A stretch of 64,000 nucleotides of DNA from Escherichia coli (GTDB taxonomy: Bacteria; Pseudomonadota; Gammaproteobacteria; Enterobacterales; Enterobacteriaceae): NCBI RefSeq assembly GCF_041248615.1, contig NZ_CP158426.1; one strand, 5' to 3'. Below are positions 43,401 to 49,400 of the stretch, piece after piece; position 1 is the stretch's first letter, and every line of letters begins with the position of its first letter. Position numbers: made by a program.

Positions 43401-46400
43401 TTAACCGTGGCTAACCTGCAACTAGCCGTTAAAGGTGAATACTTCGATGCCATCATTCGCGGAGAGAAAACGGAAGAGTATCGCCTGTGTAATGACTACT
43501 GGAATAAGCGAATTATGTTCAGGGATTATGACCGACTGATTATCACAAAGGGATATCCGAAGCGCGACGACTCCAGTCGTAGAATTGACGTCCCGTATGA
43601 CGGATATGAAATCAAGACAATCACACATCCCCACTTCGGCGATAAACCGGTAAAGGTATACGCGATAAAGGTAAATATTGATGGCTAAATCAGCAGCAGA
43701 GCGCAAAGCCGCTCAGAGAGCCAGACAAGCTGCATCTGGTGTGCGTAAGCTGGAGATTGTGCTTGATGCTCAGGAAATTGAAATGCTGGAGCGTAACTGC
43801 GCCGCCCGGCGCCCTGGTCGAGATCCCTATGAAATGGCCGAGTACATCGCGCTGCTGATCCGCCAGGATGATGCCCGGGTGCGCGGGCGTATAAAATCGA
43901 TCAGCAGAAAACGTTGCGGTAAGTGCGGCGAGAGAGTTCCAGTTAATTCATGCCCGTGCAATGGTGACTCGCAATGCTGGGTGACTAAAGGCTGGCATGA
44001 AACGAAATTAATAGTGTGACATGTCACGAGTAGATTATGCATGATGAATTTGATGTGTTTTGAATACTGCCGCCAACTATGGCGGCTTTATTTTGCATGG
44101 TACTATTACCACAACGGTAACTATTACCACGGTGGTTATGATGCCTGCTGAACCTAAAACCTATAAACGCAAATCAACGCAATTTAAGCCACTAACAGCA
44201 ATGCAGGAGGCTTATTGCCAGTCATACATCAAAACGCCTGAAAACCAGACTCAGGCAGCGATTAACGCAGGATTCTCCCCAAATACAGCGGCAGTTAAAG
44301 CCAGTGTCATGATGCGCGATGAACGCATTCAAAAACGGATTGCCGAGTTGATGGAGGAGCGCAACAAACGAATGCGCGTCAGTGCTGATTACGTTCTCAT
44401 GCGCCTGGTGGAGATCGACCAGATGGACGTGATCGATATCCTCAACGACGATGGGAGCCTTAAACCAATCCGTGAGTGGCCGAAAATCTGGCGCACTACG
44501 CTTAGTGGCTTTGATCTGTCATCGACCATCATGAACATGAACGAGGATTCGATAGAGACAATCCTCAAAAAAATTAAATGGCCTGACAAGGTGAAGAACC
44601 TCGAACTGATTGGTAAGCACGTCGACGTCAACGCATTCAAAGAACGCCTGGATGTTAATGTGAATGTGACAATTGCTGATCGCATAGCGGCAGCCAGGAA
44701 GAGACTGAAAGAACGTCAGGATGGCAATCAGTGACAGATACAGCGTTATCTCCTGAAGAGCAGTTAATCGAGGATATTGCAGGGTTCACTCACGATCCGC
44801 TTGGCTATGCCCTCTATGCGTTCCCGTGGGGGGAAGAGGGTACTGAACTGGCACATGCCACCGGTCCACGTCAGTGGCAGGCCGATGCGTTCCGAGAGAT
44901 ACGTGATCACCTGCAGAATCCAGAGACGCGATATCAGCCGCTTATGCTGGCACGTGCTTCTGGTCACGGTATTGGTAAATCCGCATTCATCTCAATGCTG
45001 ATCAACTGGGGCATGTCCACTTGCGAGGATTGTAAGGTCGTGGTGACCGCCAACACCGACAACCAGCTACGAACGAAGACCTGGCCGGAAATTATCAAGT
45101 GGTCGAACCTTGCTATCACGAAAGACTGGTTTACCTGTACCGCTACCGCGATGTACAGCAATGACCCTGGGCACGACAAGCGGTGGCGAGCTGACGCAAT
45201 CCCCTGGTCTGAGCACAACACTGAGGCATTCGCCGGACTACACAACGAGCGCAAACGCATCATCGTGGTATTCGACGAAGCATCCAACATTGCCGATCTG
45301 GTGTGGGAGGTAGCAGAGGGTGCGCTGACGGACGAAGACACTGAGATTATCTGGGTGGCATTCGGAAACCCTACACGTAACACCGGGCGTTTCCGCGAAT
45401 GTTTCCGCAAATATAAACACCGCTGGAAAACTGCGCAGATTGACAGCCGGACGGTGGAAGGCACTAACAAACAGCAGTTGCAGAAATGGGTTGATGACTA
45501 CGGGGAAGACAGCGACTTCGTTAAAATCCGTGTGCGCGGCATATTCCCGGATGCATCTGAATTGCAGTTTATCCCTACCGGCCTTACTGACGAGGCAATG
45601 AAACGGGTGGTAACCGCTGCGCAGGTTGCACATGCTCCGGTGATAATCGGCGTTGACCCGGCATACTCCGGCGTTGATGACGCTGTGATATACCTGCGGC
45701 AGGGGCTGCACAGTAAGGTGCTATGGACTGGTAACAAGACCACCGACGATCTGATTATGGCGAAGCGTATCGCTGACTTTGAAGACCAGTACCAGGCTGA
45801 CGCAGTGTTCATCGACTTCGGTTACGGAACTGGTCTGAAGTCAATCGGTGATGGCTGGGGACGTACATGGCAACTTGTTCCGTTCAGCGGTGCGTCCACT
45901 GACCCGCAGATGCTTAACAAGCGTGGGGAGATGTTCAACTCATGCAAGACATGGCTGAGGCTGGGCGGCATGCTGGATGACCAGGAAACAGCAGACGACC
46001 TGTCGGCGGCAGAGTACAAAGTTCGAGTGGACGGTAAAATCGTTATCGAACCGAAGGAAGATATCAAGGAGCGGCTTGGGCGTTCTCCTGGTAAAGGCGA
46101 TGCGCTACTGCTGACGTTTGCGTTCCCTGTGTCGAAGCGTCTGCGAATTCCCGGGCAGCAGAACCAGCAAGGCAAGGCCATCACAGATTACGATCCATAT
46201 GCTTAATCCGCTGGTGGGGATAATACTGCTGATATCCTCTGGTGAGGATAAAACAAAGCCAGCTCATCGGCTGGCTGTTTGTGACATGTCACGGTGTTAT
46301 TGCTCGCTTAACTTCTGCTTCAGCAAGTAACCTTCGAGCATCCAGATTTTGTTTACAGCATTCTGCCGGGCAATCTTCCGACCAATTTCTGCATCAAAAT

Positions 46401-49400
46401 TTTCCGGACTTGCACAGGCACTCTCTCCGGTGACGGTGAAGCCATTCTTCAGTACCAATACGCAGAAAGTCAGGAGGTCTGTAGATTTATGCGCTGTCCA
46501 TGAATCGCCAACACCCATATTGGCAGCACGAATGCCGTCATAAGCAGTAAAGAAATGCTCTTCAAGAATGATGCTTTCGATATATTGAGGCGTAACGCGC
46601 GGTGCCGTTTTGCCTTTCTCAACGATTTCTTTTTCGATTTGCTGGTCGTTCATAATCTCACCTTAAAAAAATGCCCGGCGAACCTGGCGAACTGGAAGCA
46701 ATGAGTTATGCCTTCCGTGGCTGTACGGGTTTACAGCATGAAGTCATCGCAATGGCGTCCTGCTGTAAAAAAGGGCGGTGATAGTCCTTCAAGGGAAACT
46801 ATCACCGCCAAGCCCCTGGAACTTCTGGCATCACGGTCCTTAGGCGTGATTCTGGCGTGGCATGCAGGATTCGAACCTGCGACCAACCGCTTAGAAGGCG
46901 GTTGCTCTGTCCGACTGAGCTAATGCCACAACGCTGAGAGCACTTAGCCTGTTAAGGCGCCACACTTTGTCGCGGCTCCATAAATGCTCTCATCGTTGTA
47001 CCCTCGTCTCTTCCGAGGCGTCACACCGAATCGCCGGGATGGTGAATCCCCGTGCGCGGAATAAAACCGCTCGACTTGCACATTCCGGCTACCTGGTTCG
47101 TTTGCCCGAGCAAGGGAGGGTGCCCCTTAAACGTATCCAGACCGCTATCGGCGCATGTGCCATACACCGTACTGCTCAAAATAAAATCTCACTCCACCTG
47201 TTCAATTTAACGACAGGCCAGTCAGGTTAGTAACCGGAATGAACTCTTTGGTTACCTGAAAGGTAATAATTTGTGCGTTAAATGTCAACTGTCTACGATA
47301 AATAAATCATATGTGGTTAAATTGGTAATAATTTAATTGCGTACGGAGTCATTGATATGTGCATGGGTAGCTCACCATCAGTGCCTGCAACACCAGAAGT
47401 TCAGGCAGCACCACAGGAGCAGGATGCCGCCGTTGTTGATGCCCGCGACGAAGAAACTCGTCGCCGTCGCGCTGCTGCTGGTCGTAGTTCTACGCTGCTT
47501 ACCGGTTCTCAGGGCGACACATCAACCGCTAATACCAGCGGTAAAACGCTGCTTGGTCAGTAACCGGAGTCATTGAAATGGCGGAAACAACTAAAGAGCG
47601 ATTGAACAAACAGTTCGCACAACTTGAAAGCGAGCGTCAGTCGTTCGAGCCGCACTGGCGCGAGTTGAGTGATTACATCAACCCACGTGGTTCCCGCTTT
47701 CTGACTTCTGAGGTCAACCGTAACGATCGACGCAATACACGCATTATTGATTCGACCGGGACTATGGCGGCGCGCACTCTCGCCAGCGGCATGATGTCAG
47801 GCATCACAAGCCCCGCGCGTCCGTGGTTTCGCCTGGCTACGCCAGATCCTGAAATGATGGATTATGGCCCTGTTAAGTTGTGGCTTGAGGCAGTTCAGAA
47901 CCGCATGAACGATATGTTCAATAAGTCGAATCTCTACCAGTCTCTTCCGCAGTTATACGGAAGCCTCGGCACATACAGCACTGGTGCAATGGCAGTGCTG
48001 GAGGATGACGAGGACATCATTCGCACAATGCCATTCCCGATAGGCAGTTACTACCTGGCTAACTCACCTCGTGGCAGTGTTGACACCTGTTTTCGCAAGT
48101 TCTCTATGACTGTTCGTCAGCTTGTTCAGGAGTTCGGGCTAAATAACGTCAGCGAATCCGTAAAAAGCATGTGGGAAAGCGGCACCTACGAGAAGTGGAT
48201 CGAAGTGATGCATTCGGTTTACCCGAACATTGACCGCGATACATCGAAGCTGGATAGCAAGAACAAGCCATTCAAATCGGTTTATTACGAGGTTGGTGGA
48301 GATAACGACAAGTTGTTGCGTGAGTCCGGATTCGATGAGTTTCCAATTATGGCTCCGCGCTGGGAAGTTAACGGCGAAGATGTTTATGGATCATCATGCC
48401 CGGGTATGCTGGCGCTTGGACCTGTTAAGGCATTGCAGCTTCTCCAGAAGCGCAAGTCGCAGTTGATTGATAAAGCCACCAATCCGCCGATGGTTGCTCC
48501 GACTTCCCTCAAGAATCAGCGCGCCTCCCTTCTTCCTGGCGACATCACGTATATCGATCAGATTACTGGTCAGGATGGCTTCAGGCCTGCTTATCTGGTT
48601 AACCCCAGTACAGCAGATTTGGTGGCAGACATTCAGGACACTCGTCAAATCATTAACAGCGCCTACTTTGTCGATCTGTTCATGATGTTGCAGAACATCA
48701 ATACCCGCTCGATGCCTGTTGAAGCGGTGATCGAAATGAAAGAAGAAAAACTTCTGATGTTGGGGCCGGTTCTGGAGCGTCTGAACGACGAATGTCTTAA
48801 TCCTCTCATTGACCGCGCTTTCTCGATGATGGTGCGCAAAAACATGCTGCCGCCACCGCCTGACGCGATGGAAGGCATGCCCCTGAAGGTCGAATACATT
48901 TCCGTCATGGCTCAGGCGCAGAAGTCTATCGGCCTGTCCAGTCTGGCGTCCACGGTTAACTTCATTGGTCAACTTGCGCAAGCGAAACCAGAAGCTCTCG
49001 ACAAACTCAACGTTGATCAGGCGATCGATGCATTCGCTGATATGTCCGGAGTGTCTCCAACCGTCATTGTTCCGCAGGAACAGGTTGAGCAGGCTCGCCA
49101 GCAACGGGCACAGCAACAACAGCAGCAACAAATGATGGCGATGGGGATGGCGGCGGCACAGGGGGCCAAGACGCTAAGCGAAGCTAAAACTTCGGATCCG
49201 AGTGTGTTGTCAGCTATGGCGAATGCAGTTAGTGGTCAGGGTGGGCAATCACAATGACAGATTACGAAGACGATCAACTGAAAGAAGAAAACGCCCGTAA
49301 GCAACGTGACATGGCGCAGCGTGAAATTGATGACATTCGCTTTGTCATGAGCAGTGAACAGGGGCGTCGCGTTGTCTGGTCGGTGCTGGAGAAAGGCCGT

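What the first reader, a model, noticed from the sequence alone, without database searches (positions are those of the whole stretch)
46207..47577. Moron-like insert between terminase and portal carrying a phage tRNA-Arg(UCU) and a Gp49-like gene on the opposite strand
Terminase large subunit and portal are usually adjacent. Here 1.37 kb intervenes with a minus-strand tRNA-Arg(UCU) with a clean cloverleaf and its own terminator, a minus-strand 118-aa gene, a GTGACATGTCAC copy, and ~300 bp (46930-47250) with no convincing ORF. UCU reads the rare AGA/AGG codons, so the tRNA may boost late-gene translation; the cargo gene could be a defence or anti-defence factor. Phage genes in canonical order on both sides argue that this is cargo and not an attachment site.
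Basis: partly seen in the sequence, partly recalled or inferred. Interest (0 to 1): 0.5.

Follow-up and report, generated by a model that had tools for sequence, protein, structure and literature searches.

The report
Early anti-defence cassette with new leader RNA
The gap between terminase and portal in this E. coli prophage holds a repressor-controlled early unit made of a widespread, undescribed structured RNA, a real tRNA-Arg(UCU) and an anti-CBASS sponge gene; the RNA probably lets RNA polymerase read through terminators.

Summary
The window is E. coli NRZ14408, and the prophage is an epsilon15/phiV10-like Uetakevirus beside guaA. TerL ends at 46206 and portal starts at 47578.

The gap holds a real minus-strand tRNA-Arg(UCU) (73 bits), its terminator, and a 118-aa PF13876 "Gp49" gene. 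It also holds the palindrome and about 300 bp without a gene. RefSeq already annotates the tRNA and Gp49.

- **"Recent insert" is not supported.** The leftward unit is present across the genus, and only the protein cargo varies.
- **Its promoter is early and repressed.** It carries the prophage repressor's operator (TTACC-N5-GGTAA).
- **Gp49 is an Acb4-family anti-CBASS sponge.** This rests on Pfam, the predicted fold, and a 2024 paper.
- **The "empty" 300 bp is the main result.** It is a ~170-nt pseudoknotted RNA: 97% of cells paired, 14 of 30 pairs compensatory. It has no Rfam match and is never annotated.
  - It occurs in 34% of complete E. coli genomes.
  - In lambdoid phages it sits just after the repressor-controlled PL promoter, where HK022 carries putL. 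In P1 it sits just upstream of ban. No protein is consistently linked to it.

My best reading, at about 50%, is a protein-independent processive antiterminator RNA that carries transcription through the tRNA terminators into acb4. This function is inferred, not shown.

The parts
47252..47288 (-). Early promoter with repressor operator. The -35 TTGACA is at 47288-47283, the spacer is 17 nt, and the -10 TACCTT is at 47265-47260. The operator TTACCTGAAAGGTAA lies at 47252-47266. The inferred transcription start is near 47253.
   Evidence: Sequence read. The operator TTACC-N5-GGTAA has 6 perfect copies in the window, including both sides of the CI-like repressor gene. The homologous site in epsilon15 is annotated as a repressor site. 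The same TTGACA-plus-operator layout is conserved in many Uetakevirus-type copies. Promoter activity is inferred.
47171..47251 (-). 5' leader spacer. It is a degenerate remnant of the accessory long hairpin that precedes the core in other copies.
   Evidence: Comparison of upstream flanks.
47002..47170 (-). Core of the conserved pseudoknotted RNA element.
- P1: 47169-47165 with 47153-47149, with the invariant loop UAUGGCACAUG.
- P2: 47142-47137 with 47096-47091, enclosing the variable hairpin P3.
- Invariant 19-mer GGUAGCCGGAAUGUGCAAG: 47093-47075.
- P4: variable hairpin.
- Pseudoknot S1: 47050-47047 with 47039-47036.
- Pseudoknot S2: 47044-47041 with 47027-47024.
- P6: 47018-47014 with 47006-47002.
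   Evidence: Covariance-model hit at 46996-47175, 146 bits, E = 3e-45. Covariation is shown. Homologues in unrelated phages appear. There is no Rfam match.
46930..46998 (-). Accessory long hairpin (CAAC-GAUG-AGAGCA... / ...UGCUCUCAGCGUUG). It abuts the 5' end of the tRNA.
   Evidence: Fold of -31.6 kcal/mol, z = -4.95. The basal sequence is conserved, but the module lies 5' or 3' of the core, or is absent, in other copies. The equivalent hairpin in epsilon15 is annotated 'RNaseIII'.
46853..46929 (-). tRNA-Arg(UCU), with CCA encoded.
   Evidence: ARAGORN and Rfam at 73.3 bits. It belongs to one homologous tRNA family (87-100% identity) found downstream of the element in at least 8 element clusters.
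46767..46809 (-). Intrinsic terminator T1: a 14-bp stem followed by a U-run.
46665..46688 (-). Terminator-like hairpin T2 (UUCG loop plus U7), immediately upstream of the gp49 ribosome-binding site. It is weak here and strong in epsilon15.
   Evidence: -6.5 kcal/mol here against -12.1 kcal/mol in epsilon15, where it is annotated as a terminator.
46297..46653 (-). acb4-family gene ('Gp49 family', PF13876), 118 aa. It is a probable cyclic-dinucleotide sponge acting against CBASS.
   Evidence: Pfam E = 2.6e-34. phmmer to PDB 9e4w gives E = 0.006 with the ENFxxEIGR motif. The AF2 model has pLDDT 84. Foldseek top hits are all 9e4w, with TM 0.62-0.72. See PMC11722364.
46257..46276 (.). Hairpin terminator shared by the convergent terL and gp49 genes.
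   Evidence: It is annotated in phiV10.
46281..46292 (.). Palindrome GTGACATGTCAC, one of 3 copies in the window. Its function is unknown.
47357..47563 (+). 68-aa gp3-like gene (phrog_831). It is the first gene of the portal operon and is not part of the leftward unit.

Best explanation
The terL-portal gap of this Uetakevirus prophage holds a leftward early transcription unit that the prophage repressor keeps silent in the lysogen.

On induction or infection, a sigma-70 promoter near 47288-47260 would start a transcript with these parts, in order:
1. A ~170-nt pseudoknotted leader RNA of a large, undescribed family.
2. An accessory hairpin.
3. tRNA-Arg(UCU).
4. Two terminators.
5. An Acb4-family anti-CBASS sponge gene.

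I propose that the leader RNA acts in cis on the transcribing RNA polymerase, as the put RNA of phage HK022 does. That would make the polymerase resistant to termination, so that it passes the terminators after the tRNA and expresses the anti-defence gene. In lambdoid phages the same mechanism would express the whole early-left operon.

The tRNA would supply decoding of AGA/AGG codons, which are enriched in phage genes.

**Shown:** the anatomy, RNA structure conservation, operator control sites, tRNA validity and Acb4 membership.
**Inferred:** promoter activity, read-through, and the antitermination activity of the RNA.
For: **It is a structured RNA.**
- 69 distinct copies form 97.3% standard pairs, against 26-44% when the partners are slid.
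- 14 of 30 pairs show compensatory changes, and 0 of 500 shuffles reach the observed values.
- It is not coding.

**Its position matches a promoter-proximal leader.**
- In cdtI the order is: cI stop, terminator, promoter TTGACA-16-CATAAT overlapped by an OR-type operator, the element, a strong terminator, then the first early-left gene.
- The same terminator/operator-promoter/element layout is seen in nearly all lambdoid clusters. A CI-like repressor lies upstream on the same strand in 29 of 55 clusters.
- Three clusters have an HK022-type PL with this element where HK022 has putL.
- In L102 the promoter places the transcription start at the element's first helix.

**The window promoter is repressor-controlled.** It carries the operator that also flanks the repressor gene.

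**gp49 needs read-through.** It is preceded by T1 and, right before its ribosome-binding site, T2. No promoter-like site lies between them.

**No dedicated protein partner.**
- No protein family is linked across contexts.
- The first early-left genes in the lambdoid loci examined are not N-like by PHROGs.

**It is part of longer transcripts.** Downstream genes are co-oriented, and most copies have no terminator directly after the element.

**It shares a motif with put.** Helix P1 has the put stem-I motif A-CGGCG-...CAUG-CGUCG, and the put residue U28 in CAUG is essential (PMC9378689).

**It is widespread.** The element occurs in 1835 of 5426 complete E. coli genomes.
Against: - No experiment or transcript data were available.
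- The element is not detectably homologous to HK022 putL or the HK639 putL-like RNA, by nhmmer or by covariance model with filters off. It is more than twice their size.
- T1 has a 14-bp stem. Stems of about 15 bp make terminators resistant to another processive antitermination system, conAn (PMC10325885). The transcript may therefore really end after the tRNA.
- My crude terminator scan found no enrichment downstream: 22 of 54 on the sense strand against 19 of 54 on the antisense strand.
- In P1 the element lies 2.3 kb from Pban, directly before ban. In SopranoGao it lies after the lysis genes.
- Two copies are followed by an rrn-type boxA, which could mean that Nus factors, not the RNA alone, do the work.
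Confidence: 0.5

Rival explanations
1. The interval is a moron-like cargo insert. The tRNA boosts late-gene translation, the small gene is a defence or anti-defence cargo, and the 300 bp is spacer or an incidental small RNA.
For: The unit has its own promoter and terminators. The protein cargo varies among relatives. The tRNA is real and AGA/AGG codons are enriched in phage genes. The cargo is an Acb4-family anti-defence protein.
Against: The unit is conserved across the genus. It is repressor-controlled and early. The '300 bp' is a strongly constrained RNA shared with lambdoid, P1-like and other phages.
Confidence: 0.15
2. The RNA is a trans-acting early RNA. It would be a decoy or sponge for a host protein or defence sensor, or a base-pairing small RNA, released from the transcript by RNase P at the tRNA 5' end or by RNase III at the accessory hairpin.
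For: Long invariant single-stranded blocks, such as the 19-mer and the 11-nt loop, suggest binding to a conserved host partner. The element abuts the tRNA 5' end, so RNase P would free it. It travels with an anti-defence gene and lies in early operons. An 'RNaseIII' site is annotated in epsilon15.
Against: The element is always promoter-proximal or co-oriented with downstream genes. It usually has no terminator of its own. Most copies (98 of 130) have no tRNA within 1.5 kb to define a 3' end.
Confidence: 0.17
3. The RNA is a sensor: a riboswitch-like or factor-binding leader. It would gate the early-left operon and anti-defence cassette in response to a metabolite or host state.
For: It has a compact pseudoknot, invariant junction nucleotides and a 5'-leader position. 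RNAalifold finds an alternative long-range pairing that competes with P1, which hints at a possible switch.
Against: There is no adjacent expression platform. Terminators lie at variable distances, after a tRNA or about 130 nt away, or are absent as in P1. No ligand is suggested by the gene context.
Confidence: 0.1
4. The RNA is a processing or stability element. It would be a 5' structure that protects early transcripts from RNase E, or that helps maturation of the adjacent tRNA.
For: It is associated with a tRNA, always on the same strand: tRNA-Arg(UCU) downstream, or tRNA-Ile2 upstream in P1.
Against: Three quarters of copies have no tRNA nearby. The level of sequence invariance and the pseudoknot exceed what a protective stem-loop needs.
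Confidence: 0.06

Closest known systems
HK022 putL/putR antiterminator RNAs, and the HK639 putL-like RNA
   Same: All are cis-encoded structured RNAs immediately downstream of the repressor-controlled early promoter of temperate enterobacterial phages that lack an obvious N protein. None has a dedicated protein. Terminators lie downstream. The first hairpin shares A-CGGCG...CAUG-CGUCG. Some phages with an HK022-type PL carry this element in the putL position.
   Different: The put RNAs are about 70 nt (126 nt as annotated in HK639) with two stems. This element has a core of about 165 nt with six helices, an H-type pseudoknot and a probable loop-strand pairing. No homology is detectable by HMM or covariance model. 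There is one copy per genome region, not an L/R pair. It also occurs outside lambdoids, in Uetakevirus, P1-like phage-plasmids and Lastavirus. Antitermination is untested.
Lambda N/nut and rrn boxA antitermination
   Same: It occupies the leader position after PL. Two copies are followed by a perfect rrn-type boxA.
   Different: 53 of 55 clusters have no boxA, and no N-like gene is linked.
Bacillus phage SPO1 Acb4 (anti-CBASS 4; PDB 9e4w; Pfam PF13876)
   Same: The 118-aa protein matches PF13876 (E = 2.6e-34). Its predicted fold is the Acb4 fold (TM 0.62-0.72, probability 1.0). The ENFxxEIGR motif and pocket residues F48, F62 and I66 are conserved. It is encoded in an early unit, as Acb4 activity appears early in SPO1 (PMC11722364).
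   Different: Identity is only 23-25%. Pocket residues E49, Y57 and T70 are replaced by T, A and I. It has an N-terminal extension of about 20 aa. Ligand binding and tetramer formation are untested here.
Phage-borne rare-codon tRNAs (for example argN/argO/ileZ of Stx phages and the P1 tRNAs)
   Same: It is a complete tRNA-Arg(UCU) in a phage whose genes are enriched in AGA/AGG codons.
   Different: Here the tRNA is part of a conserved module with the leader RNA. It sits inside a repressor-controlled early unit in the middle of the packaging/head genes.

Membership tests
tRNA (Rfam RF00005), arginine isoacceptor UCU | Cloverleaf scoring above the family threshold, with anticodon UCU at positions 34-36 | tested here: met
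   73.3 bits against a gathering score of 29. ARAGORN calls tRNA-Arg(tct). The acceptor stem is perfect and CCA is encoded.
tRNA (Rfam RF00005), arginine isoacceptor UCU | Expressed, processed and aminoacylated with arginine | not testable with these tools
   Needs a northern blot or an aminoacylation assay.
Acb4 / PF13876 viral sponge | Significant match to the Pfam PF13876 profile | tested here: met
   E = 2.6e-34, model positions 1-82 of 82. The paper defines the family as PF13876 (PMC11722364).
Acb4 / PF13876 viral sponge | Acb4 protomer fold: three antiparallel strands flanked by helices, with a long C-terminal helix | tested here: met
   The AF2 model with a 36-sequence alignment has pLDDT 84.3. 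The 13 best Foldseek PDB hits are all 9e4w chains, with probability 1.00 and TM 0.62-0.72. The next hits have E > 0.1.
Acb4 / PF13876 viral sponge | Conservation of the ligand-pocket residues (K36, F48, E49, V56, Y57, F62, N63, I66, T70, K81 in SPO1) | tested here: inconclusive
   F48, F62 and I66 are identical, and N63 becomes D (a backbone contact). E49 becomes T, V56 becomes C, Y57 becomes A and T70 becomes I. K36 and K81 lie outside the alignment.
Acb4 / PF13876 viral sponge | Tetramer that binds 3'3'-cGAMP or related CBASS signals and rescues phage from CBASS | not testable with these tools
   All 8 homologues tested in PMC11722364 bound 3'3'-cGAMP. This protein was not among those I could identify.
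put antiterminator RNA (HK022 type) | Located in the nascent transcript downstream of a repressor-controlled early promoter, with terminators further downstream | tested here: met
   (position). (terminators T1 and T2 before gp49).
put antiterminator RNA (HK022 type) | Sequence and structure homology to putL/putR (two stems, about 70 nt) | tested here: not met
   No nhmmer or covariance-model match to HK022 putL or the HK639 putL-like RNA. The architecture differs. Only the stem-I motif is shared.
put antiterminator RNA (HK022 type) | Protein-independent suppression of termination and pausing, blocked by RNA polymerase beta' zinc-binding-domain mutations | not testable with these tools
   Requires reporter or in vitro transcription assays.
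Moron (autonomous accessory unit in a phage late region) | Own promoter and terminator, with orientation independent of the flanking operon | tested here: met
   (by sequence only).
Moron (autonomous accessory unit in a phage late region) | Present in some and absent from other closely related phages | tested here: not met
   The unit is present in all Uetakevirus relatives examined. Only the protein ORF is exchanged, and the tRNA and part of the RNA are lost in epsilon15 and Tyrion.
Any Rfam 15 family other than tRNA | Covariance-model match to 46100-47700 | tested here: not met
   No relevant match at E <= 5. AgvB and AsxR are in Rfam and do not match.

The most novel reading that the evidence does not exclude
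The ~170-nt pseudoknotted element is a previously undescribed, highly prevalent class of phage leader RNA, structurally unrelated to put. It would reprogram host RNA polymerase without any phage protein. It would be the main early antitermination device of many N-less lambdoid phages, Uetakeviruses and P1-like phage-plasmids. It would also serve as the driver of an early 'tRNA plus anti-defence' cassette.
Probability: 0.4. Interest if true: 0.85.

Novelty: new variant of a known kind. Interest (0 to 1): 0.72.

Why it matters
RNA-only processive antitermination is known from a handful of HK022-type put sequences. Many lambdoid phages have no N gene and no recognised put site, and how they read through early terminators is an open question. 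One example is phage LLS in PMC12315714, whose relative 2H10 carries this element.

An unannotated RNA could answer that question. It is present in a third of complete E. coli genomes and in phage-plasmids, and it has a defined pseudoknotted fold. That gives a directly testable candidate and a new RNA-polymerase-binding fold.

It would also show how temperate phages wire an immediate-early tRNA and an anti-CBASS sponge behind one repressor-controlled promoter. On the practical side, it would correct several spurious ORF annotations.

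Tried and rejected
- **Rfam.** Gathering and E-value modes gave only the tRNA, plus sroE elsewhere in the window.
- **put homology.** An nhmmer 16-mer hit in HK022 lies inside nun and is chance. The covariance model with filters off gave nothing at putL or the HK639 putL-like RNA.
- **Known EHEC prophage small RNAs.** AgvB, AsxR and the Pas RNAs are either in Rfam or are small and unrelated.
- **Protein-coding reading of the 87-aa antisense ORF** (annotated as mEp460 gp37). 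Rejected, because the indels are not multiples of three.
- **Second tRNA or pseudo-tRNA in the 300 bp.** None found.
- **Literature search by sequence strings.** No hits.
- **King et al. 2011 (PMC3187212).** The paper is not held, so I could not check whether this element was mentioned there.
- **Crude terminator scan.** It gave no enrichment and missed a known long-loop terminator.
- **Strict promoter scan.** At 10 of 12 matches or more it found few sites, although promoters are visible by eye.
- **NCBIfam and PADLOC.** No hits for Gp49 or the alternative cargo proteins.
- **Single-sequence AF2 model.** Unusable, with pLDDT 38.
- **Degenerate genome-wide pattern search.** About two thirds of the hits were chance. 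They were filtered with the HMM to 23 true hits.

Full report
**Origin and setting.** The window matches the E. coli NRZ14408 chromosome (NZ_LT599825.1) at 100% identity. The prophage is an epsilon15/phiV10-like Uetakevirus integrated beside guaA, with its integrase at the guaA end. TerL (44731-46206) and portal (47578-49257) are on the plus strand and are separated by 1371 bp.

**Check of the observation.**
- The tRNA-Arg(UCU) lies at 46853-46929 on the minus strand. ARAGORN finds it and the Rfam tRNA model scores 73.3 bits.
- A strong terminator follows it: a 14-bp stem at -23 kcal/mol.
- The 118-aa minus-strand ORF (46297-46653) is a PF13876 protein.
- GTGACATGTCAC occurs three times in the window, against 0.16 expected.
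- RefSeq already annotates the tRNA and the Gp49-family protein in this genome.
- The interval also contains a conserved 68-aa plus-strand gene (epsilon15 gp3) that belongs to the portal operon.

**Is it an insert?** No. The same leftward unit lies between terL and gp3/portal in all of these relatives:
- phiV10;
- the O157 typing phages;
- TL-2011b;
- SPN1S and SPN9TCW;
- Tyrion;
- Klebsiella relatives;
- epsilon15.

What varies is the protein cargo:

| Phage | Cargo in the slot |
|---|---|
| Window prophage, phiV10, epsilon15 | Gp49/PF13876 |
| TL-2011b | 115-aa phrog_3163 protein |
| SPN9TCW | 168-aa phrog_11227 protein |
| Tyrion | DUF551 protein plus another |

Epsilon15 keeps only the first third of the RNA element and has lost the rest together with the tRNA. 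Tyrion has the RNA but no tRNA. The cargo slot itself does behave like an accessory hot-spot.

**Control of the unit.**
- Upstream of the RNA on the minus strand lies TTGACA, a 17-nt spacer, then TACCTT. This is overlapped by TTACCTGAAAGGTAA at 47252-47266.
- The palindrome TTACC-N5-GGTAA occurs six times perfectly in the window, including on both sides of the CI-like repressor gene.
- The homologous epsilon15 site is annotated as a repressor operator.
- The layout is conserved in other Uetakevirus-type copies.
- The unit should therefore be silent in the lysogen and expressed early after induction. This step is inferred from sequence.

**The cargo protein.**
- PF13876 is the family founded by Bacillus phage SPO1 Acb4. 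Acb4 is a tetrameric sponge that sequesters CBASS cyclic dinucleotides. All eight homologues tested in that study bound 3'3'-cGAMP (PMC11722364).
- The window protein hits PDB 9e4w directly (E = 0.006), with the ENFxxEIGR motif conserved.
- An AF2 model built on 36 homologues has pLDDT 84.
- Its only significant structural neighbours are 9e4w chains, with probability 1.0 and TM 0.62-0.72.
- Some pocket residues differ, so ligand specificity is open.

**The tRNA.**
- AGA/AGG usage per 1000 codons is 7.8/5.6 in prophage early genes, 5.3/2.2 in late genes, and 2.45/0.76 in the host genes of the window. Codon supplementation is therefore plausible, and more so for early genes than for late genes.
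- The tRNA belongs to one homologous family (87-100% identity) that lies downstream of the RNA element in at least eight different element clusters and contexts. It is always on the same strand as the element.

**The 'empty' 300 bp.** This is the main result.
- The stretch 47170-46930 (minus strand) is about 80% identical to unannotated sequence in unrelated phages:
  - lambdoids cdtI, mEp460, mEp390, 2H10 and Stx2 phages;
  - P1, P7, D6, SJ46 and RCS47;
  - Klebsiella SopranoGao;
  - a phage deposited as a Stenotrophomonas phage.
- The invariant 19-mer GGTAGCCGGAATGTGCAAG occurs in more than 120 IMG/VR contigs. These fall into 55 clusters.
- A BLAST search finds the core in 1835 of 5426 complete E. 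coli genomes. 554 of the matched places are on plasmids, and none has an annotated feature.
- Among GTDB species representatives, 23 true copies were found, all in Enterobacterales apart from two tiny and probably mis-binned contigs.
- It matches no Rfam family, and it is not coding.

**Structure of the RNA.** Counted on a covariance-model alignment of 69 distinct sequences:

| Measure | Observed | Control |
|---|---|---|
| Cells forming standard pairs | 97.3% | 26-44% with slid partners |
| Pairs with compensatory changes | 14 of 30 | mean 8.0 in shuffles |
| Shuffles reaching the observed values | 0 of 500 | not applicable |

These figures are, and one search gives the same picture on a MAFFT alignment. 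The architecture is:
- hairpin P1 with an invariant 11-nt loop;
- P2 enclosing the variable hairpin P3;
- an invariant 19-nt strand whose AUGUGC complements the P1 loop GCACAU;
- the variable hairpin P4;
- an H-type pseudoknot (S1 and S2);
- hairpin P6 with a GAAGAGA loop.

The GCACAU-AUGUGC pairing is invariant in all copies, so covariation cannot test it. An accessory long hairpin lies 3' of the core (as here), 5' of it, or is absent. In epsilon15 that hairpin is the feature annotated 'RNaseIII'.

**Where it sits.**
- In cdtI the order is: cI stop, terminator, promoter TTGACA-16-CATAAT overlapped by an OR-type operator, the element, a strong terminator, then the first early-left gene.
- The 170 nt upstream of all 55 cluster representatives show the same terminator/operator-promoter/element layout in nearly all lambdoid contexts.
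- The distance from the promoter ranges from about 0 to 100 nt. Three clusters have an HK022-type PL, with the element in the place of putL.
- A CI-like repressor lies upstream on the same strand in 29 of 55 clusters, and gp3/portal lies upstream in 19 of 55. No other protein family is linked.
- In P1-like elements it lies between trnI and ban, inside the C1-controlled ban operon.
- The first early-left genes of the lambdoid loci examined are not N-like by PHROGs.

**Mechanism.** The best-supported reading is a cis-acting, protein-independent processive antiterminator, analogous to HK022 put. The points in favour are these:
- It occupies the putL position.
- It has no partner protein.
- It is co-oriented with downstream genes and usually lacks its own terminator.
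- It precedes terminators that must be passed to express gp49. T2 abuts the gp49 ribosome-binding site and no promoter is detectable in between.
- P1 shares A-CGGCG...CAUG-CGUCG with put stem I, where U28 and G35 are essential (PMC9378689).

The points against are these:
- There is no detectable homology to put.
- T1 has a long stem, of a kind that resists another antitermination system (PMC10325885).
- There is no statistical enrichment of downstream terminators in my crude scan.
- The promoter-distal position in P1 is atypical.
- Two copies are followed by an rrn-type boxA.

The rivals are a trans-acting decoy or small RNA, a sensor leader, and a processing or stability element. They are not excluded.

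**Novelty.** The tRNA and the Gp49 gene are already annotated, and the Gp49 function was published in 2024. The RNA family appears undescribed. It has no Rfam entry, no annotation in RefSeq or GenBank records, and no literature hit. I could not read King et al. 2011. I classify it as a new variant of a known kind (phage leader antiterminator RNAs), with the function inferred.

Noticed in passing
window 44016-44027, 46281-46292, 63824-63835: The perfect palindrome GTGACATGTCAC occurs 3 times, against 0.16 expected. Each copy lies at the 3' end of a gene or at a convergent junction (before terS, between terL and gp49, and near the tail-end genes). It may be a protein-binding or insulator site.
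   Followed up: partly
window 36894, 37606, 39937, 39999, 44106, 47252 (plus one-mismatch copies at 36832, 37654, 37991, 44124): The repressor operator TTACC-N5-GGTAA is found at OL and OR, at two sites near 39.9-40.0 kb, and inside the start of terS. This suggests the prophage repressor controls at least five transcription units, including packaging genes.
   Followed up: partly
L003 (epsilon15) 2690-2819: The 'RNaseIII' feature in the epsilon15 record is the accessory long hairpin upstream of a truncated copy of the RNA element. Epsilon15 has deleted the rest of the element, the tRNA and half of terminator T1.
   Followed up: yes
L005 2430-2798 (mEp460 gp37); L002 2672-2923 (phiV10p04); L134 2507-2758 (TL-2011b gp24); L136 2537-2698 (Tyrion gp54): Hypothetical-protein annotations lie over the RNA element or, antisense, over the tRNA. 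The mEp460, phiV10 and TL-2011b calls are almost certainly spurious. Tyrion gp54 is a 53-aa ORF just after the element with no PHROG match, and it is doubtful.
   Followed up: partly
L029 and L069, about 130 nt downstream of the element: A perfect rrn-type boxA (GCTCTTTAACAA), preceded by a hairpin, follows the element in 2 of 55 clusters. This may combine Nus-factor antitermination with the element.
   Followed up: partly
L004 (phage P1) 2501-2674: In P1, P7, D6, SJ46 and RCS47 the element fills the unannotated 286-bp gap between trnI and ban. 554 of the matched places in complete E. coli genomes are on plasmids, and every plasmid record sampled was 88-97 kb.
   Followed up: partly
L134 2044-2391, L135 2179-2685, L136 1240-2121: Related Uetakeviruses carry alternative proteins in the Gp49 slot: phrog_3163, phrog_11227 and a DUF551 protein. 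Given the Acb4 precedent they are candidate anti-defence genes. None matches PADLOC or NCBIfam.
   Followed up: partly
window 7714-7805: The host small RNA sroE (116.6 bits) confirms the E. coli chromosomal context.
   Followed up: no
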